A stretch of DNA of 64,000 nt, from contig CANNBH010000001.1 in NCBI GenBank assembly GCA_947502815.1, positions 1,582,818 through 1,646,817 on the forward strand, read 5' to 3'. Source of the DNA: an uncultured Erythrobacter sp. GTDB taxonomy: Bacteria; Pseudomonadota; Alphaproteobacteria; Sphingomonadales; Sphingomonadaceae. Below the pieces are notes generated by a model. That model was not told the origin of the DNA, searched no databases, and was given only the letters and a program-made list of their open reading frames with translations. Below, piece after piece: positions 8,274-63,003 of this stretch. Both the position numbers and the translations under genes were made by a program. Each line of letters opens with the position of its first letter. Position 1 is the stretch's first letter.

Positions 8274-10853
8274 TTACTGGCGGAACCGTTCAATCGATTG
8301 GGCCAGGATGACGTAGAGCTTACCCATGTCCGATCCTAAGATCGTTACGCCCAAGGCATTGCCATCGCGGGTGGAAAGCATGGATCGCAGCATTGCTTCG
8401 AAATCGTGGATGTAACGGCTGACATTGGATTTGAACGTCTCGTCGCTCTGATACAACTCAGCGATTTCCTTTGCCTCTCCAGTATCAAGCAGGCGGACCG
8501 CACGTCTGGTAAAGATGCCGCGATCACCCTTTAGATAGGCATCCCATGCCGTGTCTGTCACATCGGTTGAAATCGCCGCAGCAAGGTCGATGGCGTTTGA
8601 ATTGAGGCTGTCGGTGATCAGCGCCATGCGCCGGGCAAAATCGTTGCCGACTGTTTCTTCAGACAATTCGCGCGCACGGGCGATGCGCTGTTCCAGATTG
8701 AGTGTGAGTTCGTTGACCTTGGACAGTTGGTCGCGCAATTGCACGGTCGCTTCGCGCCCGACCCCGGATGCATGCGCCGCTGCTTGTTCCAATTTCCCGA
8801 CTGTTTCCGCCGTTTCGGTGCGCAGAGATCGCTCCAATTCTGCGACGGCATCTTTGGACATCGTAGCCGCCAAAACGCCAACCTTTTCACGCGTTCCGTC
8901 TTCCAAGGCATTGAACGCGCTCGTTGTTGCCTCTTCGAGTGCTCCCAATGCCTCACGCAGTTTATCTTGGGTTTCACCGGCAAAGGTGCCGCTTTGCTCG
9001 GTCAATTGCGTAAAGCCGCCGCGCAGGCCTTGCAGTTTGGCGAGGGTGTCTTCCGATTGTTCGGAAAGGCGTGTTTGGAGGGCATGGATCGATGTGTCGG
9101 CTTCTTCGATCTTGCTTTGCGTGTCGATCAAATAGGTGCCCAGCTCTTCGGCCTTGCCAGACGTCGCAAACATCATACCGGACAATGCGGCCGCGCGCTG
9201 TTCAACCGAACCGAGCGCATGTGCGGCCCCGCCAATGGCTTCGGGTAAGTCTTCGCGGCTGTGTTTGGCGCCCGATTGAATGATCTCCAGCAAACGGACG
9301 CCGGCTTCGGTAAGGGCTCCGAGCTGTTTCTCCGTCTCGCCCAAAGCCTCGCGTTTCGCCGCTAGTTTTTCGCCCAAAGCATCCATGCTGGTTTCCAGCC
9401 CCTGCTGTGCGGTTTCGCCTTGGGCGCTGATTTCTGCGATTAGATCGGTGAGCTTCTCAAGCTGCGCACTCATTTCAGTTGAATGCGCCACCAGTTTCTC
9501 GGTCTCACGCGATTGCGCATCACGCCGTTCGGCAATTGCATCGTCAAGGTCTGACAGACGCTGCGCCAACACTTCGCTCGCTTGCGCTTCTCGCGTTGCG
9601 AATTCTTCTTGGCGTTGGTTGACGTCTTCTTGGAATTTCCGATCGCGAGCGGCCAGCGCTTGTTCGACGCGTTCTGCCTCCGCTTGCAATTCTTGAATGC
9701 GCGTTTGGGAGGAGCTGATGGCGTCTTGGTCCAATTTGTCGACCATTTCGGCGGCGGTTACTATGTCAGCTTCGAAGCGTTCCCGCGTTGCGTTCAATTG
9801 ATCGACCGCGCCAGCCTCTGTCTCGCACAGCTTAGTTGAGATGGCCTTGGCTTCTGTTTGCAGCATCAGCATCCGCTCATTCAAAGCTGTCAGTGCCTGC
9901 GTTTCGGCTTCCTCCACCTCACCGCGATATTCGCTCGTTTGGGTCTTTACGACGTCAAGGCGCGATCCAACCACTTCTTCGATCCGCGACAATTGGGCCT
10001 CTAGGCCGCCCATTGTTTCACCGACACGGCTTTCAAAAGCTGTCACTTGAGTTTCGCTGGCTTTGCCAAACTGGTTGAGCCGTTCAAACCCGGTCACCAT
10101 TTTATCAAGCTGATCCTGCGCAGTCCGTCCGGCGTTCCCAACTTGGTTGGAAACATCGCGCGCCGAATTGGCAACAACCGGCAGATCATCCCGCAGCCGG
10201 GTCATATTGCCCAGCGCGGTCTCGCTTGCGCTGCCAATTGCGTCAACCTGATCGCCATTGGTCTTAATCAGGGTTTGCAATTCGCCTGCGTGTTGGGAAA
10301 TTCGCTCACTCGCAACCCGGCCGAGCGATTCCAGTTCGAGCGATTGAGCAGCCAAAAATTCGCGCGCGAGGCTCAATTCACGATTGACCACGGTTAGGCG
10401 TGTTTCAAGCTCGCTGCTCTCTCGGGACAGCAAAGCAGCGGTTTCGGCAAAGCGCCTCGCTTCGGCCCGTGAATGGCGCATCGTGAGCAGCCAACCAACT
10501 CCGACAAGCAAGACTGGAACCGACCAATCAATGATCCAGCGGGTCCATTGTGCCGGTTCTGCAGCCGCCGCATTCAGAAACTGGTCCTGCATCGCCCAGC
10601 CATAAAGAGCCGTCCAACCCATGATCAGGGTTATCGCAAGAGCAGGGGCAATCCAGCCAAATCTCTGCTCGGACACATCATAAGTGTCTTCGGTGTCAAA
10701 GTCTGAAAGATCCAATTCATCTTCCATTTCAACAGCATCTGCCAAAGACTGCGCCTCTTCACCGGGTGCGATTTCACCCTCAGCATGCGTGCTAGATTGC
10801 GCTTTTTGCGCGGCGTCTGGGCCCACGGCCCTGATATGTTGTCCACCCGACAT
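8274..10853 (-). CDS. Large coiled-coil membrane protein (two N-terminal TM helices), TipN/GPR-like polar landmark candidate
   Basis: 859 aa from ATG at 10853 (MSGGQHIRAV). Acidic N-terminus, two TM segments, about 650 aa of A/E/L/Q-rich heptads, and a C-terminal FKSNVSRYIHDFEAML...SDMGKLYVILA motif. Confidence 0.6.
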   Translation of the reverse strand: MSGGQHIRAVGPDAAQKAQSSTHAEGEIAPGEEAQSLADAVEMEDELDLSDFDTEDTYDVSEQRFGWIAPALAITLIMGWTALYGWAMQDQFLNAAAAEPAQWTRWIIDWSVPVLLVGVGWLLTMRHSRAEARRFAETAALLSRESSELETRLTVVNRELSLAREFLAAQSLELESLGRVASERISQHAGELQTLIKTNGDQVDAIGSASETALGNMTRLRDDLPVVANSARDVSNQVGNAGRTAQDQLDKMVTGFERLNQFGKASETQVTAFESRVGETMGGLEAQLSRIEEVVGSRLDVVKTQTSEYRGEVEEAETQALTALNERMLMLQTEAKAISTKLCETEAGAVDQLNATRERFEADIVTAAEMVDKLDQDAISSSQTRIQELQAEAERVEQALAARDRKFQEDVNQRQEEFATREAQASEVLAQRLSDLDDAIAERRDAQSRETEKLVAHSTEMSAQLEKLTDLIAEISAQGETAQQGLETSMDALGEKLAAKREALGETEKQLGALTEAGVRLLEIIQSGAKHSREDLPEAIGGAAHALGSVEQRAAALSGMMFATSGKAEELGTYLIDTQSKIEEADTSIHALQTRLSEQSEDTLAKLQGLRGGFTQLTEQSGTFAGETQDKLREALGALEEATTSAFNALEDGTREKVGVLAATMSKDAVAELERSLRTETAETVGKLEQAAAHASGVGREATVQLRDQLSKVNELTLNLEQRIARARELSEETVGNDFARRMALITDSLNSNAIDLAAAISTDVTDTAWDAYLKGDRGIFTRRAVRLLDTGEAKEIAELYQSDETFKSNVSRYIHDFEAMLRSMLSTRDGNALGVTILGSDMGKLYVILAQSIERFRQ

Positions 10854-10883
10854 GCTCGCTAGATACCACAGCTTGCGTGTGGA

Positions 10884-10899
10884 TAAACCCCGCATTAAC
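10884..10899. promoter_or_regulatory. CtrA-like box TAAA-N7-TTAAC in the divergent promoter region
   Basis: taaa ccccgca ttaac, compared with the CtrA consensus TTAA-N7-TTAAC; overlaps the inverted repeat ccgcatt-N7-aatgcgg (10890-10910). Confidence 0.45.
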
Positions 10900-11326: not shown

Positions 11327-12592
11327 ATGCAAAGCGCGGTCCGTTTTGGCCGCCTTTTGCTGATGGAATGTCAATTGCGCACCGCTCTGATCGCTGCAAT
11401 CAAACGCACAGACAGCGGAGCTTTGCGCGCGGAGATGATGCTTGCCGGGCGCAGCGTCGCTGGATGGCAAGTGGATCTCGCGCACGCCCTTTTGTGCGAA
11501 CGGGTTATCTGCCTATGCGAAGGGCCAAACGACACGCTCACCACCCTTCAACGCGAGGTCGAGGAGCGCGGGGGCGAATTTCACGCGATACGAAGCAATT
11601 TGCAATTGGTCAGTCTGGTCCGGGCCGATGACGAGTTGATAATGATGGCCGATGGGGTGTTGGCCGATCGCGATGCGGTGATGCAATTCGCTGCTGGAAC
11701 CAATGGCGATGCCAAAAGCGCGTTGCATAGGGGAATTGCGGTTCTCCCGGCCGGCCATTCCCTTGCCGCCAGTCACCCAGAGGATTTTGAGCGGATTGCC
11801 GGCGACAGCCATTGGGCTGGGTTTGCCGTCATAAGGGCAGGGCAGGTGCACAAACTGGCCGATTTACCGCCTGACGGCGATGCAATGTCCTTGCTTCTCC
11901 GTTTGGCCCTTCAAGCAAGCGTGGAATGCCGTCAACTAGCGGATGGATCGGCCGATAGCGGCGACGGGACGGCCCGCTGGATGATCGCACACAGTGGTTC
12001 GGCCATTGCGGAGCGTGAAGCGGCGTTGCTCGATAGCAGTGTTTCGGAGCCGTCATGGACTGGCCCCGGCCTTGCCATTGCCGCAATTGCAACCCGCGCA
12101 ATCGCGCCGCGTTGGATTGAAAAAGGGCCGGAAATCAGCGCTCTGTCTGCGGTATTTCTTACGCTTTCAGGGGTGGGGCTCACCGGCTATGGATTGCCCT
12201 TGGTTGGCCTGTCGCTCGCCGCATTCGGAGCCTTTGGAGGTGCAATGAGCGCGGAGTGGAGCGCATTGCGATCCCGGCTCTGGTCGCAAGACACCAGCGC
12301 ACGGCGCGCTACAATGTTGACCATCGCACTCGATTGCAGCGCCGCAATTGTACTGATTTTGGCGTTGGGAGTTCCGATCAGCTTGGTTGCGAATGCTGCT
12401 CTGCCGATTTTGGCCATTGGGCTCGCCCATCTGGCCGGACGCGATGACCGTGCATCGGTCAACGCGTTTTGGCGGGATCGCGGCCTCCATCTGATCGGTT
12501 TCGCGATTGCCAGCGGGGCTGGGTATTTGAATGAGGCACTGTCCATCTTTGCCATCGCTGCTCTTTTGCAATTGCTGCTGCGCCGCAAATAA
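11327..12592 (+). CDS. Hypothetical membrane protein: N-terminal nucleotidyltransferase-like region plus C-terminal TM bundle
   Basis: Long ORF with host-like coding pattern. The N-terminus (LAGRSVAGWQ...ERVICL...DDELIMMADG) resembles the GT-A/NTP-transferase fold; there are 5-6 C-terminal hydrophobic helices. Exact start uncertain. Confidence 0.55.
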   Translation: MQSAVRFGRLLLMECQLRTALIAAIKRTDSGALRAEMMLAGRSVAGWQVDLAHALLCERVICLCEGPNDTLTTLQREVEERGGEFHAIRSNLQLVSLVRADDELIMMADGVLADRDAVMQFAAGTNGDAKSALHRGIAVLPAGHSLAASHPEDFERIAGDSHWAGFAVIRAGQVHKLADLPPDGDAMSLLLRLALQASVECRQLADGSADSGDGTARWMIAHSGSAIAEREAALLDSSVSEPSWTGPGLAIAAIATRAIAPRWIEKGPEISALSAVFLTLSGVGLTGYGLPLVGLSLAAFGAFGGAMSAEWSALRSRLWSQDTSARRATMLTIALDCSAAIVLILALGVPISLVANAALPILAIGLAHLAGRDDRASVNAFWRDRGLHLIGFAIASGAGYLNEALSIFAIAALLQLLLRRK

Positions 12593-12675: not shown

Positions 12676-13656
12676 ATGGGCGACATGTCTATAGACCGGA
12701 CCGACACCACCTCTGTCGAGGCTATCCTGCGGGATGAACTCGCGCGCGGAAATCGCGCGTTGAGCGGAGTTGCGCCTGTCATTTCCCATATGCTCGCCAG
12801 CTCTGGTCATGCATTGGTAAGCGACGCGATTGTCGCGCGTTTGCGCGGAATGTTGATGGATCTGGCCTGCCAATTGATTGCCGCGTCGATGAGCAAGGCC
12901 GATGGGCAAACTGGCGACATCGACGAAGCCGTAATCGATCAAGTTGCCGATCATCTTGCAGGCGATAGCGACGTTCTGGGACACCTCTACGCTCTCGCCA
13001 TGGAAGGGCATTTGACCGAGCGATTGGAGCAGCGATCTTCGGTCGATCCGGTGCTCAGCCCCCTTTTGCAGGAATTGATCGCGTCGGATCAGGCCGCTAT
13101 TGCGGAATTGGCCATGACCACGCTCGCGGCGCAATCGCGCTTTACCCAAAGCCAAAGGCGAATGGAATTGCCGCTGGGTGAATTGCCTTCGGATCTGTTC
13201 GTTGCGGTTGTTAAACGGTTTAAGAAAGCCGCGCATGCCGACGATCGTGATCGCGTTTCTCAGGCGATGAAGGACCTGAAAAACCAATATGATGAAGGCA
13301 CGGGACGTCTGGGTTTGCTGGCCCGGCTTGTGTCTTCGATGCGCGGAGGTGCGGTGGCTGCGCTGGAGCTTGATCACGCGGGCCTTGCGCTCTTTGTCAG
13401 CGGAATTTCGGCATTGACGCGGCAACCGCGCGACCTTGCGGTGCTTGCGTGTCACGAACGCCAAGCAGCGCGGCTCGCGCTGAGTTTAAGAGCTGGCGGT
13501 CTAAACCCCGAAGCGATTGAGCGACAATTCCTGCTGATTGAGCCCAGCGAAATGCTGCCCAGCGGTATTGCGGCGATGTCGCCAGAGCGCGCGCGCGATT
13601 TGCTGGGCGGTTCGGCGCTGCCATATGCCAACGGCTTTGGCCTTGGTGCCGGGTGA
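12676..13656 (+). CDS. Hypothetical all-alpha protein, DUF2336-like
   Basis: 326-aa soluble helical protein. Size and the C-terminal LAVLAC...ARLALSLRAGGL pattern recall DUF2336 proteins; the family call is by eye only. Confidence 0.45.
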   Translation: MGDMSIDRTDTTSVEAILRDELARGNRALSGVAPVISHMLASSGHALVSDAIVARLRGMLMDLACQLIAASMSKADGQTGDIDEAVIDQVADHLAGDSDVLGHLYALAMEGHLTERLEQRSSVDPVLSPLLQELIASDQAAIAELAMTTLAAQSRFTQSQRRMELPLGELPSDLFVAVVKRFKKAAHADDRDRVSQAMKDLKNQYDEGTGRLGLLARLVSSMRGGAVAALELDHAGLALFVSGISALTRQPRDLAVLACHERQAARLALSLRAGGLNPEAIERQFLLIEPSEMLPSGIAAMSPERARDLLGGSALPYANGFGLGAG

Positions 13657-13666
13657 GGGGCGCAGG

Positions 13667-15070
13667 ATGAACCGGCAACAATCCCTTCTCGCCGCGCGCG
13701 GGGTCACCGATCAAAGGGACCGGTTGCTGACCGCGGACGATCCCTTGGCGGAGCTGCATGAAAGCTGCGGCGGATCGCTGCCCGGCACATTGGCGGTGCC
13801 AGAGTTGCTCGACCTTGTCAGGCAAAGCCGCGAGATGGGCCTGCGTATCGCGCGCGAATTCACGGCGTTTGACGGTTCAGAAATGGTGAGCGGGTTTGTG
13901 CGTATTCATCCTCTTTCGGATGAAAATGGCGGCGGCTGCGAAGTGCTGGTTGAAAATTGGCAGCGCGCGCCGCAGCCAGAGATGAGCACCCATGATTTGG
14001 CCGACCGAATTGATGCGATCGACCGTGCTGCTGCTGAAGTCACTGCACGGCTTGATCCGCGCCAACAGGTTCAGTTTTTGACGTCCAGCGCAGTGGATGT
14101 TGGCGCGTTGCAGGATGCAATTGCCTCAAGCCCGCGCAAAGTTTGGACCGACTATGTAACGCTCAAAGGCGTTGCCCACCATCAACCGCTTCATTGGCGT
14201 TTGCTCGACGGAGCATATTGCACATTCGAAGGGTCAGCCCGGCATTGGCGGGTGCGGATCATCCCGCTTGGCCCGATCAGCGGCGCACCGCGCGGATTTG
14301 AACTCTTGATGGTCGCGGATGAGCCGCCTGGCGCGGCCGCGGATACGACCGAGATTGAGACACAAAGCGCGCAGTCACAATTGATCGGGAGCGCCCTCAC
14401 ACCCGTTTTGCGGCAACCCATTGCGCGCATCATCGCCAATGCAGAAACGATCCGCACCCGATTGGCCGGGCCGCTGCGCGAAGAATACAGCGATTATGCC
14501 GGCAACATCGCCGCCGCAGGTCAGCATTTGTCGGGCATGCTCGATGATCTTGCTGACTTGGAAGTGGTCGAGGCTCCGGGCTTTTCGGCGGCAAAGGAAA
14601 AGGTCGATTTGGTTGATGCCGCCGCGCGGGCTGCGGGGATATTGGGCGTGCGCGCGCAAGATCGGCGAATTACTCTGACCCATGTAAAGGGCGATGGACC
14701 AATTGTGGCGATGGCGGAGTTTCGCCGGGTGCTGCAAATTCTCATCAATCTCATTGGCAATGCGATTGCCTATTCCCCGGAAGGCAGCACAGTCACAATC
14801 GCTGTCGATAACGCAGGCGAGGGATCGATTGCGCTGAGCGTGGTCGACGAGGGGCCCGGCGTTACGGCGGATCAAGCGACACGAATATTTGAGAAGTTTG
14901 AGCGCCTTGGCAGGGATCAAGACGGCGGGAATGACAGCGGATCTGGTCTTGGTCTGTACATCTCGCGCCGCCTTGCGTTGGCAATGGATGGTGATCTCAT
15001 CGTCATGAAGCCAGAAGCGGATGCGCCGCTGAAAGGCGCTGAATTCCGGCTAACACTGCCGCGCGCCTGA
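13667..15070 (+). CDS. PleC/DivJ-family histidine kinase-like protein lacking the H-box His (pseudokinase)
   Basis: ATG at 13667, 10 nt after the upstream stop. DHp segment TPVLRQPIARIIANAE...GPLREEYSDYAGNIAAAGQHL; intact HATPase N (INLIGNAIAYS), G1 (DEGPG), F (IFEKF) and G2 (GSGLGL) boxes; PAS-like N-terminal region. Confidence 0.8.
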   Translation: MNRQQSLLAARGVTDQRDRLLTADDPLAELHESCGGSLPGTLAVPELLDLVRQSREMGLRIAREFTAFDGSEMVSGFVRIHPLSDENGGGCEVLVENWQRAPQPEMSTHDLADRIDAIDRAAAEVTARLDPRQQVQFLTSSAVDVGALQDAIASSPRKVWTDYVTLKGVAHHQPLHWRLLDGAYCTFEGSARHWRVRIIPLGPISGAPRGFELLMVADEPPGAAADTTEIETQSAQSQLIGSALTPVLRQPIARIIANAETIRTRLAGPLREEYSDYAGNIAAAGQHLSGMLDDLADLEVVEAPGFSAAKEKVDLVDAAARAAGILGVRAQDRRITLTHVKGDGPIVAMAEFRRVLQILINLIGNAIAYSPEGSTVTIAVDNAGEGSIALSVVDEGPGVTADQATRIFEKFERLGRDQDGGNDSGSGLGLYISRRLALAMDGDLIVMKPEADAPLKGAEFRLTLPRA

Positions 15071-15111: not shown

Positions 15112-15148
15112 AAAAGAGCGACCCCAAGGTTGTCCTTAGGATCGCTCT
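15112..15148 (-). terminator. Intrinsic terminator downstream of gltA
   Basis: Minus-strand hairpin agagcgatcctaagg-acaa-ccttggggtcgctct followed by a short U-tract, between convergent genes. Confidence 0.7.
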
Positions 15149-43396: not shown

Positions 43397-43998
43397 CAGA
43401 CGCAATTCCCGGTTGTAACCGTCTCATCTTGTTGGTCGTAAGGTTGGTTGCGAAGCACGGTCGATGCACGCAATTCCACGTCTTGAGGCAGACCCGCGAG
43501 ACCATACATCGGAAACAGGCGAGGGTAGGTGACAACGGCCGTGTAAAGCACCGCGTCACGCGCGCCGCCTATGCCCACTTCGCCGCGATCTTCATCCCAT
43601 TGACCGTTGTTGTTTGCATCAACAAATGGTTCGCCATTGTTGCAAATGCCATCGAGAACACCGCTGTCAGTGAATTCTTCCGCTTCGCCGATGTCCTCGA
43701 AATCAAAGTGCGAAAGCTTTTCCAACGTGACGGTTGCGTTGTTTGGCACAACGGAACTGACGCTGTTGACGACGCGAGCATCGATTGTCGCTTCATTGCT
43801 GCCAGCGCTTTCGAGGGTCAGATCACGGCCTGCCTTTTGCATCGCGCCGTTCATCAAGGCGGATGTGTATTGTGTGTGCGCGAGGTCGAAAATACCCATC
43901 ACCATCAGGATCAGGACCGGCGCGACGAAACCAAATTCGGTCAACGTCGCGCCATCCTTGTCACGGATGAGCCTGCGCATGGTCTTGAACGGGATCAT
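43396..43998 (-). CDS. tadE: TadE-like pseudopilin
   Basis: DKDGATLTEFGFVAPVLILMVMGIFD prepilin motif (G-x-x-x-x-EF). Confidence 0.88.
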   Translation of the reverse strand: MIPFKTMRRLIRDKDGATLTEFGFVAPVLILMVMGIFDLAHTQYTSALMNGAMQKAGRDLTLESAGSNEATIDARVVNSVSSVVPNNATVTLEKLSHFDFEDIGEAEEFTDSGVLDGICNNGEPFVDANNNGQWDEDRGEVGIGGARDAVLYTAVVTYPRLFPMYGLAGLPQDVELRASTVLRNQPYDQQDETVTTGNCV

Positions 43999-45956
43999 GC
44001 TGTTAGCCTCAATGCTGCGATTTTCTCGGCGATTTCACGGAACGCTGAATCGAGCGAAGTAGAGTCTGTCGCCGAATAGGCGCGGCCCGGTGTGGCGCAG
44101 TCAATCAGGTTTTGTGAAAGGCTGGTACCAAAGGCGACAACCCAAACAGAGATGTTTTTGTTGCGCGCTGCTCGGCAAGCCGCTTGGAAACGTTCCGCGT
44201 GGCGATCCTGACGCTGGGTATAGCCTGCATCGGAGGTAACGCGGCGATCCCACCATTCCAACCCGTATAGAGTATAAAGCCGGTTGTGAGTAACCAGTTC
44301 ACCATCGGTCATAAACACGATGTGACGTGAAATCGCGTCACCATTTGGAGCGGTTGCGTTCTCCGAAGCGAAAATGCCGTCGGGAGAGATAAAGCGCGCA
44401 CCCCAGATCATGCCAAAGTCATGATATGTGTTGCCGCCTGCACGGAAGCCTTCTGCCTCAGAAACCCAAGCTTCAAGGTCACTGCGGCTGTCAAATTCAG
44501 CAAGTTTACGAGCTGCTTTCGGGCAGGTGGTCGACGCGTTGACTTTGTCCTCGGTTGAACCGGTGATATCCGATTGCACCCATTCGTCGCTGTCCGACCA
44601 ACTCTCACCGTCATTGTAACGCAGGAAGGTCAGCGATGGCAGCATTGGTCTCCAACGTTCGGAGTTGTTGCTGGGCACCAGGTCAATATCCAGATCATAG
44701 GCACCTGTAGGCACCGGATTCCAGGTTGCGGATGCAACGGTGTCGGCTTCTTCAATGCAGCCATTCCAAGTGTGGGTTTCGTTCGTCTCTTCCCAACCGG
44801 TTGGCGTCGTGAGCGTCCCGGTGCTGTAAAGACTGGTGAGGTCGAATTCGACAGGACGATAGGCCCAGAAGAATTCCCGAGTTTCAGTGCGCCCTTCGGT
44901 CACTGTGATTTCGGATTCAGCGTAGTAGTATTCTTCGTCAAAATTCAAACGGCAACGATCGTTTGAACCGTAGTATGTGCCGCCAGTAAAGGTCTGTCGG
45001 TTGTAGCGAACAGGCCCGGTGTATTGCGAGATCCGCGGGTCTGTCCCGGACGATGAAACCAGCGTAAATCCGGCTTCATCGGCCGAAACAAAGATTTCCG
45101 AACGGTCTTGGTTGAACGCGATATCTACGCATTCATTGTAGGTTACCCCGTAGTCGTTGGTTTCAATGTTCCCTTGATATTGATAACTATAGCCGTTGCC
45201 TGTTCTCACGTAGGTGTAGGTTTCTGGCTCATAAGTGACCGTAATATCCCAATCGGCCTCGCGCGATTGGTATGTGTGACTTGTCGCCATCCAATTGGTG
45301 TTAAGCGAACCCCCGACATTGACTTGGTTGGAATAGGGAACGATCCCGTAACGGATCTGGGCCGAGCTTGAAGTGGCGGAGTCCACGGTATCGTAAAACG
45401 TCAAAACCGAATTGCGCAGGCTGTTGATCCGCGAATTTGGTCCGTTCGAACAATTGGATCCGTTTGAATCGCAGCTCATCGATCCGGTTACGTCCAGCAC
45501 AAACATAATGTCTGTGTTTGAGATGTTGATTTCAGCGGAGCAATCCACCTCCAGATCAAATTCGTTGTAACCGAACGCGCCCATTATGCTGGTTGGCAAT
45601 GTGCCCGTTGCCGTCCCGTTTACAGTGCCCTCTGATGTGGCAGTGTAGTCGCGCTGAAGACCGTCCAACCCAAACGTGCCGTCCGGATAGTTTTGGTCAA
45701 AGAAGTTGAGGCCAACCTGCTTGTGCTCGTTGGAAAAATCATCCGCATCCATCGCACGGCGCGCGGCGAGGGCACCGGCATCGCATGCGGCCTGAAGACG
45801 GGTTTCCGTCATGTAATAACGGCTAGCATCAACGCCGCCGCCAACCATGGCCATCAACGGAACTAGGCTGGCCGCGGAGATCGCCAGCGTATTTGCCGTT
45901 GGGTCTTTTGCGATTCTTCGTAAAATCGAAAAGCGATTGTCTATTTTCTGGCCCAT
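43995..45956 (-). CDS. tadG: TadG-like pilus-associated protein with vWA domain and a large insertion
   Basis: N-terminal hydrophobic helix, DASR...LQAACDAGALA, MIDAS-like DVTGSM and FMTDG, with a Tyr/Thr/Asn-rich insert. Confidence 0.85.
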   Translation of the reverse strand: MGQKIDNRFSILRRIAKDPTANTLAISAASLVPLMAMVGGGVDASRYYMTETRLQAACDAGALAARRAMDADDFSNEHKQVGLNFFDQNYPDGTFGLDGLQRDYTATSEGTVNGTATGTLPTSIMGAFGYNEFDLEVDCSAEINISNTDIMFVLDVTGSMSCDSNGSNCSNGPNSRINSLRNSVLTFYDTVDSATSSSAQIRYGIVPYSNQVNVGGSLNTNWMATSHTYQSREADWDITVTYEPETYTYVRTGNGYSYQYQGNIETNDYGVTYNECVDIAFNQDRSEIFVSADEAGFTLVSSSGTDPRISQYTGPVRYNRQTFTGGTYYGSNDRCRLNFDEEYYYAESEITVTEGRTETREFFWAYRPVEFDLTSLYSTGTLTTPTGWEETNETHTWNGCIEEADTVASATWNPVPTGAYDLDIDLVPSNNSERWRPMLPSLTFLRYNDGESWSDSDEWVQSDITGSTEDKVNASTTCPKAARKLAEFDSRSDLEAWVSEAEGFRAGGNTYHDFGMIWGARFISPDGIFASENATAPNGDAISRHIVFMTDGELVTHNRLYTLYGLEWWDRRVTSDAGYTQRQDRHAERFQAACRAARNKNISVWVVAFGTSLSQNLIDCATPGRAYSATDSTSLDSAFREIAEKIAALRLTA

Positions 45957-53491: not shown

Positions 53492-54835
53492 ATGATTTCC
53501 CTTTTTACGCATAAGCGCGCTTCGTCGTTTGCTCTTGCATTCGCCTTGGCAACAGGAACCGCCGTTGTTGCAACTGCTGTCATTCCTCCTGAGGCCAGTG
53601 CCCAACGCAACCGAGACCGTGACAGCGATTCGTCTGAAGAGGATGATGGCGGCGGTTACAGCAACGAATTTCGCGAAATTTATGTCCCACTGGATGAAGC
53701 GTTGAAGGCAGAAGGTGCCAGTGTTGATGCGCAGCGTGCGCAAATTTCCGCTCTCGCTGGCGTATTGAACACCAATGACGAAAAGATCGCTGGCGGCGGT
53801 TTGATGTACAATGCCGGGATCAGCGCGTCTGACCCAGCTCTGCAATTGCAGGGTATGGAATTCATGCTGGCGAGCGGCAAGGTCCCGGTTGAACAAACGG
53901 GCCGTTACAATTTCATCGCATATCAGCTTGCCAATGGACAAAGCGATTCAACCAAGGCTCGCCAGTATCTCCAGTCGGCGATCCAATACAATTTCTCGAC
54001 AGGTTCATTCACCGTGGATGACCTGAAAATGACCATGGCAGAAAGCTATTTTGAAGCGGAAGAATTCCAACCAGGCTTTGCCTATCTGCGCCAAATCATC
54101 GCAGAGAAGAAATCTGCGGGACAGGTCGTTCCGGAGCAATGGTATCGCCGCGGCGTTGCGGTTTCGTATTTGAACGAAATTTCCCCAGATGTTTATGATT
54201 TCGCCACAATGTGGGTGGGGGCATACCCTTCATCCGACAATTGGCGTGAAGCGATCAATGTGACGCGTAATCTCAACACCTATGAGCGCACAGAAATGCT
54301 CGACCTGTTTCGTTTGAGCCGCCGTGTCGGCGCTCTGCAGGAAGAAGCAGATTACGACTACTTTGTTGAAGCCGCCGATGCGCGCCAACTGCCTCGTGAA
54401 GTAACGGACATCATCAACGAAGGCCGTGCAACCGGTGTGATCAGTGCTGACAATCTGTACATCACCGAAGCTCTTGAGATCGCTAATGGCCGGCTCGCCA
54501 GCGACCGCGCTGACCTGCCTGCGTTGGAGCGGGATGCGATGGCGAGTTCAGCGGGCATTCGCACCGTTGCTGCGGCAGGCTCGGTGTTCCTGAGCTACGG
54601 TGAATATGGCAAAGCAGCGACCTTCTACCAACGCGCTTTGGGTATGCCCGGAGTTGACACACCTTTGGCGTTGACCCGTTTGGGCATCGCGCAAGTTGGA
54701 ATGGGTGATTATGCCGCTGCGCGCCAAACATTTGGCCAAATCACGGGCAACCGTGTGACCATCGCCAAACTTTGGACTGCCTATGCGAATGAGCTGGAAG
54801 CGGCATCCGCACCTGCGGCACCTGCAACGATGTAA
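53492..54835 (+). CDS. Exported TPR-like helical-repeat protein
   Basis: Signal peptide (...PPEASA/QRN) and repeated helical TPR-like units (YGEYGKAATFYQRAL, MGDYAAARQTF). Confidence 0.65.
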   Translation: MISLFTHKRASSFALAFALATGTAVVATAVIPPEASAQRNRDRDSDSSEEDDGGGYSNEFREIYVPLDEALKAEGASVDAQRAQISALAGVLNTNDEKIAGGGLMYNAGISASDPALQLQGMEFMLASGKVPVEQTGRYNFIAYQLANGQSDSTKARQYLQSAIQYNFSTGSFTVDDLKMTMAESYFEAEEFQPGFAYLRQIIAEKKSAGQVVPEQWYRRGVAVSYLNEISPDVYDFATMWVGAYPSSDNWREAINVTRNLNTYERTEMLDLFRLSRRVGALQEEADYDYFVEAADARQLPREVTDIINEGRATGVISADNLYITEALEIANGRLASDRADLPALERDAMASSAGIRTVAAAGSVFLSYGEYGKAATFYQRALGMPGVDTPLALTRLGIAQVGMGDYAAARQTFGQITGNRVTIAKLWTAYANELEAASAPAAPATM

Positions 54836-60796: not shown

Positions 60797-61861
60797 ATGA
60801 CAGACATCCCAACCCCTCCACCGCTTAGGCCCATCCAGATTGGGCCCGAAACGATTGCAGACCCGGTCGTGCTCGCACCGATGACGGGGGTCACCGATAT
60901 GCCGTTCCGCACTTTGGTGCGGCGTTATGGGTCTGGCCTCAACGTGACAGAGATGGTTGCGAGCGAAGCGGCGATCCGGGAAACGCGCCAATCACTGCAA
61001 AAAACGGCATGGGATCAGACCGAAGAACCGGTGTCGATGCAGCTGGTCGGATGCGATCCTGAAAGCATGGGGGAGGCCGCCAAGCTTCAAGAAGGCAACG
61101 GCGCCGCGATCATCGACATCAATTTTGGCTGTCCTGTTCGCAAAGTGGTGGGCCAGCTCGCGGGGTCTGCTCTGATGCGCGAAGTGCCGCTCGCGACAAA
61201 ATTGATGGAAGCCACCGTCAATGCGGTTGATGTTCCCGTTACGGTGAAAATGCGGATGGGCTGGGATCATCAAAGCCTGAACGCGCCTGAGCTTGCGCGC
61301 ATTGCCGAAGATCTTGGCGTTAAAATGATCACTGTCCACGGCCGCACTCGCAATCAGATGTACAAGGGCGAGGCGGACTGGTCTTTCATCGCGAAGGTCA
61401 AAGAGGCCGTATCCATTCCCGTTATCGTCAATGGCGATATCTGCACGATTGGTGATGCGGCCAAGGCGTTGGAGCAATCTGGCGCAGATGGCCTGATGAT
61501 TGGACGGGGGGCCTATGGGAAACCGTGGCTGCTGGGTCAGGTGATGCATTGGTGGCGCACCGGCGAGAGCATTCCGACACCCGATTTTGACGAACAATAT
61601 GCGGTTCTTGTCGAGCATTATAACCGGATGTTGGACCATTATGGTCGGGACGTCGGTTCAAAGATCGCGCGCAAACATATCGGATGGTATACAAAGGGAA
61701 TGCACGGATCAGCAGATTTCCGGAATATGGCCAATTCGATCGATGATCCTGATCAGGTTTTGGGCGAGATAGAACGGTTCTATGCCCCATTTTTGGGCCG
61801 CCGATCCGAGGCTCAACCGCGCAGGGATGCGCCTGCCAACCTCGCCGCGAAAGCCGCCTGA
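60797..61861 (+). CDS. dusB: tRNA-dihydrouridine synthase B (NifR3)
   Basis: [33 protein letters not shown] and MIGR motifs. Confidence 0.96.
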
Positions 61862-61863
61862 AC

Positions 61864-63003
61864 ATGGGCAGCAAAGGGAATGCGGGTCGCCCTGTGCTCA
61901 GGATACCAGAGAGCAACGGCAACGACATTTCCAGTTTTGACCCGTCGCGTCCCAACCCAGAGGCACAGATTGCTGGTCTGGTTTTCGCGCTCTTGCTGGT
62001 CGATCAAAACACTCTGATCGCAGAGGCTAATCACGCAGCGGAAAATATGCTGGGTGTCAGCGCCAAACGACTAGTCGGAAAACCTCTGCTGGAAGTGATT
62101 GGCCCGCTTGATCCGCGGGTAGAGGCGCGGTTGAGCGTGATTGATGCTGCCCTTGTTGCGCGCGATATCTTGGTCAGGGCAAGCGCGAATGAAACGCGCG
62201 TCAACCTCACCGTATCGCCGCTGGGCAGTTTTCCCGGTTGGCGGGTGATCACCCTGTCGCAGGTCGGACATGACGAAACCGGCGGCGAGGATGAACTGAC
62301 TTCGACGCACGGTGCCCCATCGATCCTAGCGCATGAGATCAAAAACCCTCTCGCGGCGATCCGCGGTGCTGGGCAATTGGCAGCGCGCAAATTGCCGTTG
62401 AAAGACAAGAAACTTGCCCGGATGATCACCGATGAAGTGGACCGGATTGCGCGGCTTATTGATCGGATGCAATTGCTGGGGGCGAAGAACACCGAAATTG
62501 CCTCACCTTGCAATCCGCATGAATCTGTTCGTGCGGCCATCGCAACGGTGCGCGCCGGCAGCCCCAAAGCGGTCGATATTCGGGAAGAATTTGATCCATC
62601 CTTGCCGCCTGTGCTGGCCAATCGGGATGCATTGGAGCAAATCCTCATCAACCTGATCTCCAACGCCCGCGACGCCGCGGGCGCCGGGGACACCGGGCAA
62701 ATTGTGGTCAAGACCCGGTTCGTCAGCGGCCTCGCGTTCAGCGCGATCCGATTGGGGCGCGCGGTGCGCTTGCCCATAGAAATAACGGTCAGCGACAATG
62801 GTCCTGGCATCGACCCGTCGATGCGCGACCATGTGTTTGAACCTTTTGTTTCATCGAAACAATCCGGCCAAGGGTTGGGCCTGGCACTGGTGCGAAAACT
62901 GGTCCGCGACATGAATGGCAGCATCAGCCATGAACGAGACGCGCGCGCGGGGATTACCCATTTTCGGTTGCATTTGCCGATGGCAAAGCCGGGTCAGGAA
63001 TAG
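61864..63003 (+). CDS. ntrB: Nitrogen regulation sensor kinase NtrB
   Basis: PAS region, intact H-box LAHEIKNPL, N/G1/F/G2 boxes; located between dusB and ntrC. Confidence 0.93.
   Translation: MGSKGNAGRPVLRIPESNGNDISSFDPSRPNPEAQIAGLVFALLLVDQNTLIAEANHAAENMLGVSAKRLVGKPLLEVIGPLDPRVEARLSVIDAALVARDILVRASANETRVNLTVSPLGSFPGWRVITLSQVGHDETGGEDELTSTHGAPSILAHEIKNPLAAIRGAGQLAARKLPLKDKKLARMITDEVDRIARLIDRMQLLGAKNTEIASPCNPHESVRAAIATVRAGSPKAVDIREEFDPSLPPVLANRDALEQILINLISNARDAAGAGDTGQIVVKTRFVSGLAFSAIRLGRAVRLPIEITVSDNGPGIDPSMRDHVFEPFVSSKQSGQGLGLALVRKLVRDMNGSISHERDARAGITHFRLHLPMAKPGQE

What the first reader, a model, noticed from the sequence alone, without database searches (positions are those of the whole stretch)
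13667..15070. PleC/DivJ-family pseudokinase with His->Pro in the H-box but an intact ATP-binding domain
Seen: LTPVLRQPIARIIANAE aligns with (M)SHELRTPLNAIIGFSE, with Pro246 (codon 14402-14404) at the His position. The downstream GPL..EY.DYA..I...GQHL...DDL.DL matches the PleC/DivJ DHp signature. N, G1, F and G2 boxes are intact. NtrB in the same window keeps its H-box. Known: DivL replaces His with Tyr. Inference: a His->Pro variant with no TM helix would be a distinct DivL-like adaptor.
Basis: partly seen in the sequence, partly recalled or inferred. Interest (0 to 1): 0.75.

Follow-up and report, generated by a model that had tools for sequence, protein, structure and literature searches.

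The report
Histidine-less PleC/DivJ-like pseudokinase family, Sphingomonadales
This gene encodes a soluble protein that looks like a bacterial sensor histidine kinase but lacks the histidine it would phosphorylate; the loss is shared by a whole uncharacterised family across the Sphingomonadales, so the protein probably signals by binding partners, not by passing phosphate.

Summary
ORF 13667-15070 (+) encodes a 467-aa cytoplasmic protein with two PAS-like domains, a DHp domain and a CA domain. Pro246 (CCC, 14402-14404) sits exactly where HK853 and PleC carry the phospho-acceptor His.

It is neither a sequencing error nor strain-specific. All 120 closest homologues have Pro. All four Pro codons occur among 69 genomes. 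None of 44 divergent full-length family representatives, all Sphingomonadales where named, has His there. The partner acid (H+1) and the phosphatase Thr (H+4) are also gone. The N, G1, F and G2 residues are kept in 42-44 of 44. dN/dS is about 0.1, and the DHp is the most constrained part.

The DHp is of the DivJ/PdhS/PleC type: these are the best NCBIfam matches, and it scores 102 bits against real PleC versus 65 bits or less against any solved kinase.

It is not the DivL orthologue, because Sphingomonadales carry a separate DivL of about 784 aa. It also lacks the DivK-docking code of PleC and DivL.

Best reading: a conserved, unnamed pseudokinase that signals through its own invariant DHp surface. 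Its partner is unknown. It is a new variant of a known kind, and the function is inferred.

The parts
13667..15070 (+). CDS of the His-less histidine-kinase-like protein (467 aa)
   Evidence: ORF list. Pfam HATPase_c 2.6e-22 and a sub-threshold HisKA match. Full-length homologues.
13655..13660 (+). GAGGGG ribosome-binding site, 7 nt before the ATG, overlapping the stop codon (13654-13656) of the upstream ORF
   Evidence: Read directly from the sequence. Function is inferred.
13688..13972 (+). PAS-like domain A (aa 8-102): beta-beta-alpha-alpha-beta-beta-beta
   Evidence: AF2 model with pLDDT about 95. No Pfam match even at E=10. Foldseek hits to PAS-containing kinases.
14039..14317 (+). PAS-like domain B (aa 125-217), containing the conserved HQPLHWRLLDG motif
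   Evidence: AF2 model. Foldseek alignments of about 400 columns to YF1 and other LOV-kinase chimeras. Motif seen.
14351..14572 (+). DHp helical hairpin (aa 229-302), DivJ/PdhS/PleC type, the most constrained part of the gene
   Evidence: AF2 helices 229-263 and 272-302. NCBIfam DivJ 40 bits and PdhS 26 bits. Lowest dN.
14402..14404 (+). CCC codon for Pro246, at the position of the phospho-acceptor histidine
   Evidence: Conserved through all four Pro codons.
14597..15061 (+). CA (HATPase_c) domain, aa 311-465
   Evidence: Pfam. AF2 model.
14735..14779 (+). N box (Q357, N361, N365-A366, Y369, P371). The usual basic residue at 368 is Ala.
14846..14860 (+). G1 box D394-E-G396-P-G398
   Evidence: D 42/44, G396 42/44 and G398 39/44.
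14888..14899 (+). F box F408-E-K-F411
14939..14956 (+). G2 box G425-S-G-L-G-L, preceded by a clade-specific 4-residue lid insertion (GNDS, aa 421-424)
12676..13656 (+). Upstream all-helical 326-aa protein, probably co-transcribed. Adjacent in all 75 related loci (Erythrobacter, Porphyrobacter, Qipengyuania, Aurantiacibacter and Novosphingobium) and absent in Sphingomicrobium.
11327..12592 (+). Upstream 421-aa protein with a hydrophobic C-terminal part and no family match. Syntenic as far as Sphingomicrobium.
8274..10895 (-). Divergent 873-aa protein: acidic N-terminus, two TM-like segments and about 700 aa of coiled coil. Syntenic across the order.
15115..15148 (.). 15-bp-stem hairpin between the convergent kinase-like gene and gltA, likely a terminator

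Best explanation
The gene encodes a soluble PAS-PAS-DHp-CA protein. It descends from the PleC/DivJ/PdhS branch of alphaproteobacterial HisKA kinases. Before the Sphingomonadales diversified, it lost the phospho-acceptor His, the adjacent catalytic acid and the phosphatase Thr.

It therefore most likely neither autophosphorylates on the DHp nor acts as a canonical phosphatase, which makes it a pseudokinase. It would work by protein-protein contact. Its dimeric DHp presents a family-specific, nearly invariant docking face (R254-I-I-A-N-A-E-T-I262) to a conserved partner, either a response regulator or another kinase. The two PAS-like domains and the nucleotide-binding CA domain would modulate that contact.

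Shown: loss of the catalytic residues, conservation, fold and kinship. Inferred: lack of activity, binding through the DHp, and any link to the CtrA/cell-polarity circuitry.
For: - Pro246 aligns to the His of HK853 and PleC.
- No His occurs at that column in 120 close and 44 divergent homologues.
- H+1 is A/V instead of E, and H+4 is Q or variable instead of T. PleC keeps H, E and T in 117 of 117 sequences.
- All four Pro codons are used.
- dN/dS is 0.07-0.14. The DHp has the lowest dN (0.07-0.15), against 0.25-0.35 for the CA domain.
- The docking positions are conserved within the family: H+8 R 38/44, H+11 A 33/44, H+12 N 30/44.
- N/G1/F/G2 residues are kept in 42-44 of 44.
- The AF2 model is confident (pLDDT 88.7) and shows two PAS-like domains, a DHp and a CA domain. 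Foldseek matches PAS-kinases and NifL.
- The DHp best matches the DivJ and PdhS models in 32 and 25 of 35 members.
- The protein scores 102 bits against PleC, versus 65 bits or less against any PDB kinase.
- The family is restricted to Sphingomonadales wherever a source names the organism.
Against: - No experiment exists, and no partner has been identified.
- Strict conservation of the ATP-binding motifs is not needed for a pure scaffold. It could mean real catalysis on another acceptor.
- DivL shows that motif retention does not prove ATP binding (PMC4211667).
- The gene sits in a block of housekeeping genes with order-wide synteny, so the neighbours give little functional information.
- No receiver-domain gene lies nearby.
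Confidence: 0.55

Rival explanations
1. DivL-like sensor. The protein would bind phosphorylated DivK through the DHp and thereby switch CckA between kinase and phosphatase modes.
For: - It shares with DivL a missing His alongside retained N/G1/F/G2 boxes and PAS domains (PMC4211667).
- Its DHp belongs to the DivK-partner kinase group DivJ/PdhS/PleC.
- Sphingomonadales keep CckA, ChpT, CtrA and DivL.
Against: - The PleC docking code N-A-G-F-I is replaced by x-R-A-N-T.
- The DivL residues T557 and Y562, needed for DivK binding, correspond to variable or Ala and to Asn.
- The residue replacing His is not fixed across the family, unlike the Tyr of DivL.
- A separate DivL of about 784 aa exists in the order.
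- DivJ-PleC-DivK is reported as degenerate or lost there.
- The match to DivL 4q20 is weaker than to generic kinases.
Confidence: 0.12
2. Catalytically active CA domain with a different acceptor. The protein would either heterodimerise with a true kinase and phosphorylate that partner's His in trans, or phosphorylate another protein or residue.
For: - Near-invariance of N361, N365, D394, G396, F408 and G427-L-G-L across about 45-100 % identity.
- Some homologues also touch the HATPase_c_2 (Ser-kinase type) model in precomputed Pfam hits.
Against: - The N-box basic residue is Ala in 115 of 120 members of this clade.
- The catalytic acid next to the His position is lost.
- DivL keeps the same boxes yet binds TNP-ATP weakly and is inactive.
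- The CA domain evolves faster than the DHp.
- The adjacent 326-aa protein has no HPt-like or receiver-like fold.
Confidence: 0.15
3. NifL-like nucleotide and redox sensor. The PAS domains and an ADP/ATP-binding GHKL domain would set the affinity of a non-phosphorylated helical domain for a regulatory partner.
For: - Same domain order as NifL. Foldseek hit to the NifL-NifA complex 9qq6 (rank 8, E 3e-16).
- Conserved nucleotide-binding motifs without an acceptor His.
- Conserved His/Trp-rich motif HQPLHWRLLDG in PAS-like domain B.
Against: - No NifA-type or other partner gene is adjacent.
- No PAS cofactor motif is recognised by Pfam.
- The Foldseek hit is one of many PAS-kinase hits with low TM-scores.
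Confidence: 0.1
4. Sequencing error, strain-specific mutation or decaying pseudogene.
For: None, beyond the missing His itself.
Against: - Pro is present in 120 of 120 homologues, through four synonymous codons.
- The reading frame is intact across the order, with dN/dS about 0.1.
- Synteny is kept in 75 loci.
Confidence: 0.01

Closest known systems
PleC / DivJ / PdhS cell-cycle histidine kinases of Alphaproteobacteria
   Same: - The DHp sequence signature (LR.P...GPL..Y..YA.DI..(S/A)G.HLL.L..D.LD) and the CA domain.
- Best NCBIfam matches for the DHp alone are DivJ and PdhS.
- It scores 102 bits against real PleC.
- It is cytoplasmic with PAS-type sensors, like PdhS (own knowledge for PdhS).
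   Different: - No His, no H+1 Glu and no H+4 Thr.
- Different regulator-docking residues.
- No PAS_7 domain or TM segments.
- Scores are far below the curated equivalog cut-offs (40 vs 1000 bits).
- The N-terminal 235 aa match no Pfam family.
DivL (Caulobacter pseudokinase, PDB 4q20/4ew8)
   Same: A HisKA-type kinase fold with the acceptor His replaced and the N/G1/F/G2 motifs retained. PAS domains lie upstream, and the presumed mode of action is non-catalytic (PMC4211667).
   Different: - DivL has a conserved Tyr, is about 770 aa with several PAS domains, and docks DivK~P via R553, T557 and Y562.
- This protein has a Pro or variable residue, is 467 aa, and keeps only the Arg.
- Sphingomonadales encode a separate DivL.
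- Sequence similarity to DivL is lower than to HK853 or GacS.
RetS and other kinase-like modulators that act by DHp heterodimerisation
   Same: RetS appears among both sequence and fold matches. The concept is similar: a kinase fold used to bind another kinase.
   Different: RetS is a membrane hybrid protein with receiver domains. No evidence of heterodimerisation exists here.
NifL
   Same: A PAS-PAS-helical-GHKL arrangement acting without phosphotransfer (Foldseek hit 9qq6).
   Different: No sequence kinship beyond the kinase superfamily, and no NifA partner gene.

Membership tests
Functional HisKA-type sensor histidine kinase | Phospho-acceptor His in the H-box of DHp helix 1, followed by an acidic residue | tested here: not met
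   Pro246-Val247 in the window. No His in 164 homologues examined.
Functional HisKA-type sensor histidine kinase | Pfam HisKA match above the gathering score | tested here: not met
   26.6 bits against a cut-off of 26.9. The match begins at profile position 13, after the His.
Functional HisKA-type sensor histidine kinase | CA domain with N, G1, F and G2 boxes | tested here: met
   HATPase_c 2.6e-22. Key residues kept in 42-44 of 44. Caveat: the N-box Lys/Arg is Ala in this clade.
Functional HisKA-type sensor histidine kinase | Autophosphorylation with ATP | not testable with these tools
   Needs a biochemical assay.
PleC/DivJ/PdhS family | DHp sequence closest to this group | tested here: met
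   DivJ and PdhS are the top NCBIfam hits for the DHp alone, in 32 and 25 of 35 members. 102 bits against PleC.
PleC/DivJ/PdhS family | H-E-x-x-T kinase/phosphatase motif | tested here: not met
   PleC has H/E/T in 117 of 117. This family has P(R,A..)/A,V/Q(var).
PleC/DivJ/PdhS family | DivK/PleD docking residues (N-A..G-F..I after the His) | tested here: not met
   x-R..A-N..T in this family.
PleC/DivJ/PdhS family | Score above the curated equivalog cut-off | tested here: not met
   85.6 bits (whole protein) against 1000 for DivJ. 26 bits (DHp alone) against 2000 for PdhS.
PleC/DivJ/PdhS family | Placement inside the clade in a tree with DivJ, PleC, PdhS, DivL, CckA and outgroups | not tested
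   Only PleC reference sequences could be retrieved. No DivJ, PdhS or CckA sequences were in hand.
DivL | Conserved Tyr at the His position | tested here: not met
   Pro here. The column is variable across the family. Tyr is conserved in DivL (PMC4211667).
DivL | Orthology: the single DivL-type gene of the genome, about 770 aa and multi-PAS | tested here: not met
   This protein is 467 aa. Novosphingobium pentaromativorans DivL is a separate 2355-bp gene (PMC8116508 Table S2).
DivL | Binds DivK~P | not testable with these tools
   Docking residues are not conserved, but binding needs an assay.
Bacterial histidine pseudokinase (functional class) | Kinase fold retained under selection with catalytic residues lost | tested here: met
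NifL-like regulators | Adjacent or partner NifA-type activator | tested here: not met
   Neighbours are unrelated genes.

The most novel reading that the evidence does not exclude
This family is what became of the PleC/DivJ-type polarity kinase in Sphingomonadales. After the DivJ-PleC-DivK phospho-switch was lost, a His-less descendant was kept as a soluble, ATP/ADP- and PAS-signal-sensitive adaptor. It would dock on a different partner (DivL, CckA, or an order-specific regulator) and so control the CckA-ChpT-CtrA relay without phosphotransfer. It may act at a site organised by the neighbouring two-TM coiled-coil protein, whose architecture resembles the TipN/GPR polarity proteins.
Probability: 0.15. 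Interest if true: 0.8.

Novelty: new variant of a known kind. Interest (0 to 1): 0.55.

Why it matters
Bacterial histidine pseudokinases are few, and DivL is the paradigm. This is a second pseudokinase family, independent of DivL, that arose in the same kinase lineage. It is conserved across a whole order in which the CtrA pathway is known but its upstream control is not (DivJ-PleC-DivK is lost or degenerate).

It offers three things:
- A natural test of what a DHp-CA core does once phosphotransfer is removed.
- A concrete candidate regulator to delete or pull down in Sphingomonas, Novosphingobium or Erythrobacter models.
- A correction to database annotation, where members are uniformly called 'sensor histidine kinase' or 'HAMP domain-containing histidine kinase'.

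Tried and rejected
- Pfam and NCBIfam on the N-terminal 235 aa and on the three upstream genes gave no family.
- The upstream 326-aa protein was tested as a possible HPt-like or receiver-like phospho-acceptor. Its AF2 model is confident (pLDDT 88, pTM 0.86), but Foldseek found no PDB match with E < 0.1. Some UniRef entries call it DUF2336, which has no useful literature. It is also absent in Sphingomicrobium, so it was rejected as an obligatory partner.
- H287 (GQHL) as an alternative acceptor was rejected, because PleC and HK853 carry the same His.
- The His upstream in 'HSRLIG' of many homologues is not conserved; it is Gln in the window.
- The longer TTG start at 13538 was rejected. It overlaps the upstream ORF, and homologues begin at the ATG.
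- DivL orthology was rejected.
- The search for RNA-seq runs found only DNA or metagenome contigs, so there is no expression evidence.
- Literature searches for any description of the family found nothing.
All comparisons used the database proteins it returned.
- A full phylogeny was not possible, because DivJ, PdhS and CckA reference sequences could not be fetched.

Full report
**The object.** The window is a housekeeping stretch of an Erythrobacter-type genome (Sphingomonadales). It carries nuoLMN, coaX, RNase J, gltA, gltX, comEC, lexA, trp genes, PDH E1, gyrA and dusB-ntrB. The best homologues of the protein all come from Erythrobacter, Porphyrobacter or Qipengyuania. The ORF from ATG 13667 to the stop at 15068-15070 encodes 467 aa. 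A GAGGGG Shine-Dalgarno sequence at 13655-13660 overlaps the stop codon of the upstream ORF, and homologues align from residue 1. The longer TTG start at 13538 is not needed.

**Checking the observation.**
- Pfam finds HATPase_c (aa 353-466, 2.6e-22). It also finds a HisKA match that begins only at profile position 13 and scores 26.6 bits, just under the 26.9 cut-off.
- Residues 244-260 are LTPVLRQPIARIIANAE, and codon 14402-14404 is CCC.
- phmmer aligns this stretch to ISHELRTPLTAIKAYAE of HK853, placing Pro246 on H260.
- It also aligns to MSHELRTPLNAINGFSE of real PleC proteins from the database.
- The downstream GPL..EY.DYA..I..AGQHL...DDL.DL lines up with PleC GPL..RYKDYAQDI..SGQHLLALINDILD.
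- The N, G1, F and G2 boxes are present, and there is no TM-like segment.
- NtrB (61864-63003) keeps LAHEIKNPL.

**It is not an error or a strain peculiarity.**
- All 120 best homologues (63-100 % identity) have Pro at this column.
- In 69 species-level genomes the Pro is encoded by CCG (46), CCT (12), CCC (6) and CCA (5).
- Orthologues at 45-50 % identity in Novosphingobium, Aurantiacibacter and Qipengyuania also have Pro.
- A search of 1.84 billion representative proteins with only the N-terminal 235 aa found just 152 hits. Wherever a source names the organism, it belongs to the Sphingomonadales: Erythrobacteraceae, Novosphingobium, Croceicoccus, Blastomonas, Rhizorhabdus and Sphingomicrobium.
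- Among the 44 full-length representatives the column holds P (25), R (6), A (4), S (3), D (2), Q, T or I, and never His.
- dN/dS against relatives is 0.07-0.14, although dS is saturated so the values are rough. The DHp has the lowest dN.

The loss of His is therefore ancestral to an order-wide family that is under purifying selection.

**What else was lost and what was kept.** In 117 PleC-type sequences, H, E (+1), R (+3), T (+4) and P (+5) are invariant, and so are the regulator-docking positions N (+7), A (+8), G (+11) and F (+12), with I or M at +15. In this family the same positions are P/R/A.., A/V, R, Q or variable, P, variable, R, A, N and T.
- The catalytic acid and the phosphatase Thr are gone together with the His.
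- The helix-1 face R254-I-I-A-N-A-E-T-I262 is itself strongly conserved.
- In the CA domain, Q357, N361, N365, D394, G396, F408 and G427-L-G-L are invariant or nearly so.

Two details qualify the phrase 'intact ATP-binding domain'. The basic N-box residue (Lys in 116 of 117 PleC sequences, Arg in 27 of 44 family representatives) is Ala in 115 of 120 members of the window's clade. That clade also has a 4-residue insertion (GNDS) in the ATP lid.

**Architecture.** An AlphaFold2 model built on 49 family sequences is confident (pLDDT 88.7). It shows two beta2-alpha-beta3 PAS-like domains (aa 8-102 and 125-217), a DHp hairpin (229-263 and 272-302) and a CA domain. Foldseek against the PDB returns PAS-linked kinases and relatives over 400-550 columns: a WalK model, YF1 and other LOV-FixL chimeras, VicK, NifL-NifA and phytochromes. 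It returns DHp-CA cores such as HK853, CpxA, ZraS, RetS and DivL over about 240 columns. At the sequence level the N-terminal half matches no Pfam family even at E = 10.

**Kinship.**
- The DHp alone (109 aa) matches the NCBIfam DivJ model best (40 bits, 1e-10), then PdhS (26 bits), ahead of CreC, HrmK and TorS.
- Across 35 family members, 32 hit DivJ and 25 hit PdhS.
- The whole protein scores up to 102 bits against real PleC proteins. It scores 65 bits against the best solved kinase and 60 bits against HK853.
- DivL (4q20) does not reach E 1e-10 with the single sequence. With the family profile, DivL ranks below HK853 and GacS.

It is a derived relative and not a member of that family.

**Not DivL, and probably not a DivK sensor.** Sphingomonadales genomes analysed by Tomasch et al. 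each have a DivL orthologue. In Novosphingobium pentaromativorans it is a 2355-bp gene (PMC8116508 Table S2), so this 467-aa protein is an additional pseudokinase. [quoted passage not shown] In DivL, the mutations R553A, T557N and Y562A break DivK binding, and the Tyr replacing His is conserved (PMC4211667). Here only the generic Arg is kept, and the residue at the His position drifts across the family.

**Context.** The order rnj, an 873-aa gene (minus strand), a 421-aa gene, a 326-aa gene, the kinase-like gene, gltA (minus), gltX (minus), comEC is found in 75 related loci. It is also found, without the 326-aa gene, in Sphingomicrobium. Because the whole block is housekeeping and syntenic, this says little about function.
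- The 326-aa protein is all-helical with a confident model but no structural neighbour in the PDB.
- The 873-aa protein has two TM-like segments and about 700 aa of coiled coil. That architecture recalls the polarity proteins TipN and GPR (own knowledge), but homology was not shown.
- A 15-bp-stem hairpin (15115-15148) separates the convergent gene from gltA.

**Mechanism.** The best-supported reading (about 0.55) is a non-phosphorylatable pseudokinase that signals through its conserved DHp face to an as yet unknown partner, with the PAS-like and CA domains as modulators.
- Shown: the loss of the catalytic residues, the selection, the fold and the kinship.
- Inferred: inactivity and the mode of action.

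The rivals are:
- A CA domain that still uses ATP on another acceptor or on a heterodimer partner (0.15). The invariant ATP motifs favour it. The Ala in the N box, the faster-evolving CA domain and the DivL precedent weaken it.
- A NifL-like nucleotide sensor (0.10).
- An artefact or pseudogene (0.01, refuted).

**Novelty and score.** No paper in the library describes the family, and databases name its members as ordinary sensor kinases. It is a new variant of a known kind, the bacterial histidine pseudokinase. It is interesting because it arose in the PleC/DivJ lineage of an order that lost that module. All functional statements remain inference, so interest is set at 0.55.

Noticed in passing
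window 8274-10895 (-): An 873-aa protein with an acidic N-terminus, two TM-like segments (about aa 79-100 and 118-140) and about 700 aa of coiled coil. It has only a weak Apolipoprotein-repeat Pfam hit and no NCBIfam match. It keeps the same position next to RNase J in 70+ loci and in Sphingomicrobium (26 % identity over 789 aa). The architecture resembles the polarity proteins TipN and GPR, but homology was not tested.
   Followed up: partly
window 12676-13656 (+): A 326-aa all-helical protein whose stop codon overlaps the ribosome-binding site of the kinase-like gene. Its AF2 model is confident (pLDDT 88, pTM 0.86), yet it has no PDB structural neighbour (best E 0.24). A few UniRef entries call it DUF2336, but Pfam does not match it. 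It has 47 invariant residues in 31 sequences, including H38 and H260. It is absent from the Sphingomicrobium locus.
   Followed up: yes
window 11327-12592 (+): A 421-aa protein with a soluble N-terminal half, a hydrophobic C-terminal part and no family match. It is weakly conserved (30-55 % identity), has a 24 %-identical counterpart in Sphingomicrobium, and gave no match in five otherwise syntenic loci (L017, L023, L028, L050, L073).
   Followed up: partly
window 14768-14770 (Ala368) and 14927-14938 (aa 421-424): Two clade-specific changes occur in the CA domain. The N-box basic residue (Lys in PleC, Arg in most of the family) is Ala in 115 of 120 close homologues. Among those close homologues, the ATP lid was measured in 110; it is four residues longer (GNDS in the window) in 98 of them.
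   Followed up: partly
window 15115-15148: A hairpin with a 15-bp stem (8 G-C pairs) and a T-run lies in the 108-bp gap between the convergent kinase-like gene and gltA. It is likely a shared terminator.
   Followed up: no
window 14192-14224 (aa 176-186): The motif HQPLHWRLLDG in the second PAS-like domain is highly conserved down to 45 % identity orthologues. It is a possible ligand or cofactor site.
   Followed up: no
window 60797-63003 (+): dusB is followed by ntrB (PAS-HisKA-HATPase_c) with a normal H-box, LAHEIKNPL. This is the usual alphaproteobacterial dusB-ntrBC arrangement.
   Followed up: yes
window 53492-54835 (+) and 43995-45956 (-): A 447-aa ORF has no Pfam or NCBIfam match. A 652-aa ORF has only an N-terminal TadE/G-like (Flp pilus) match.
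   Followed up: no
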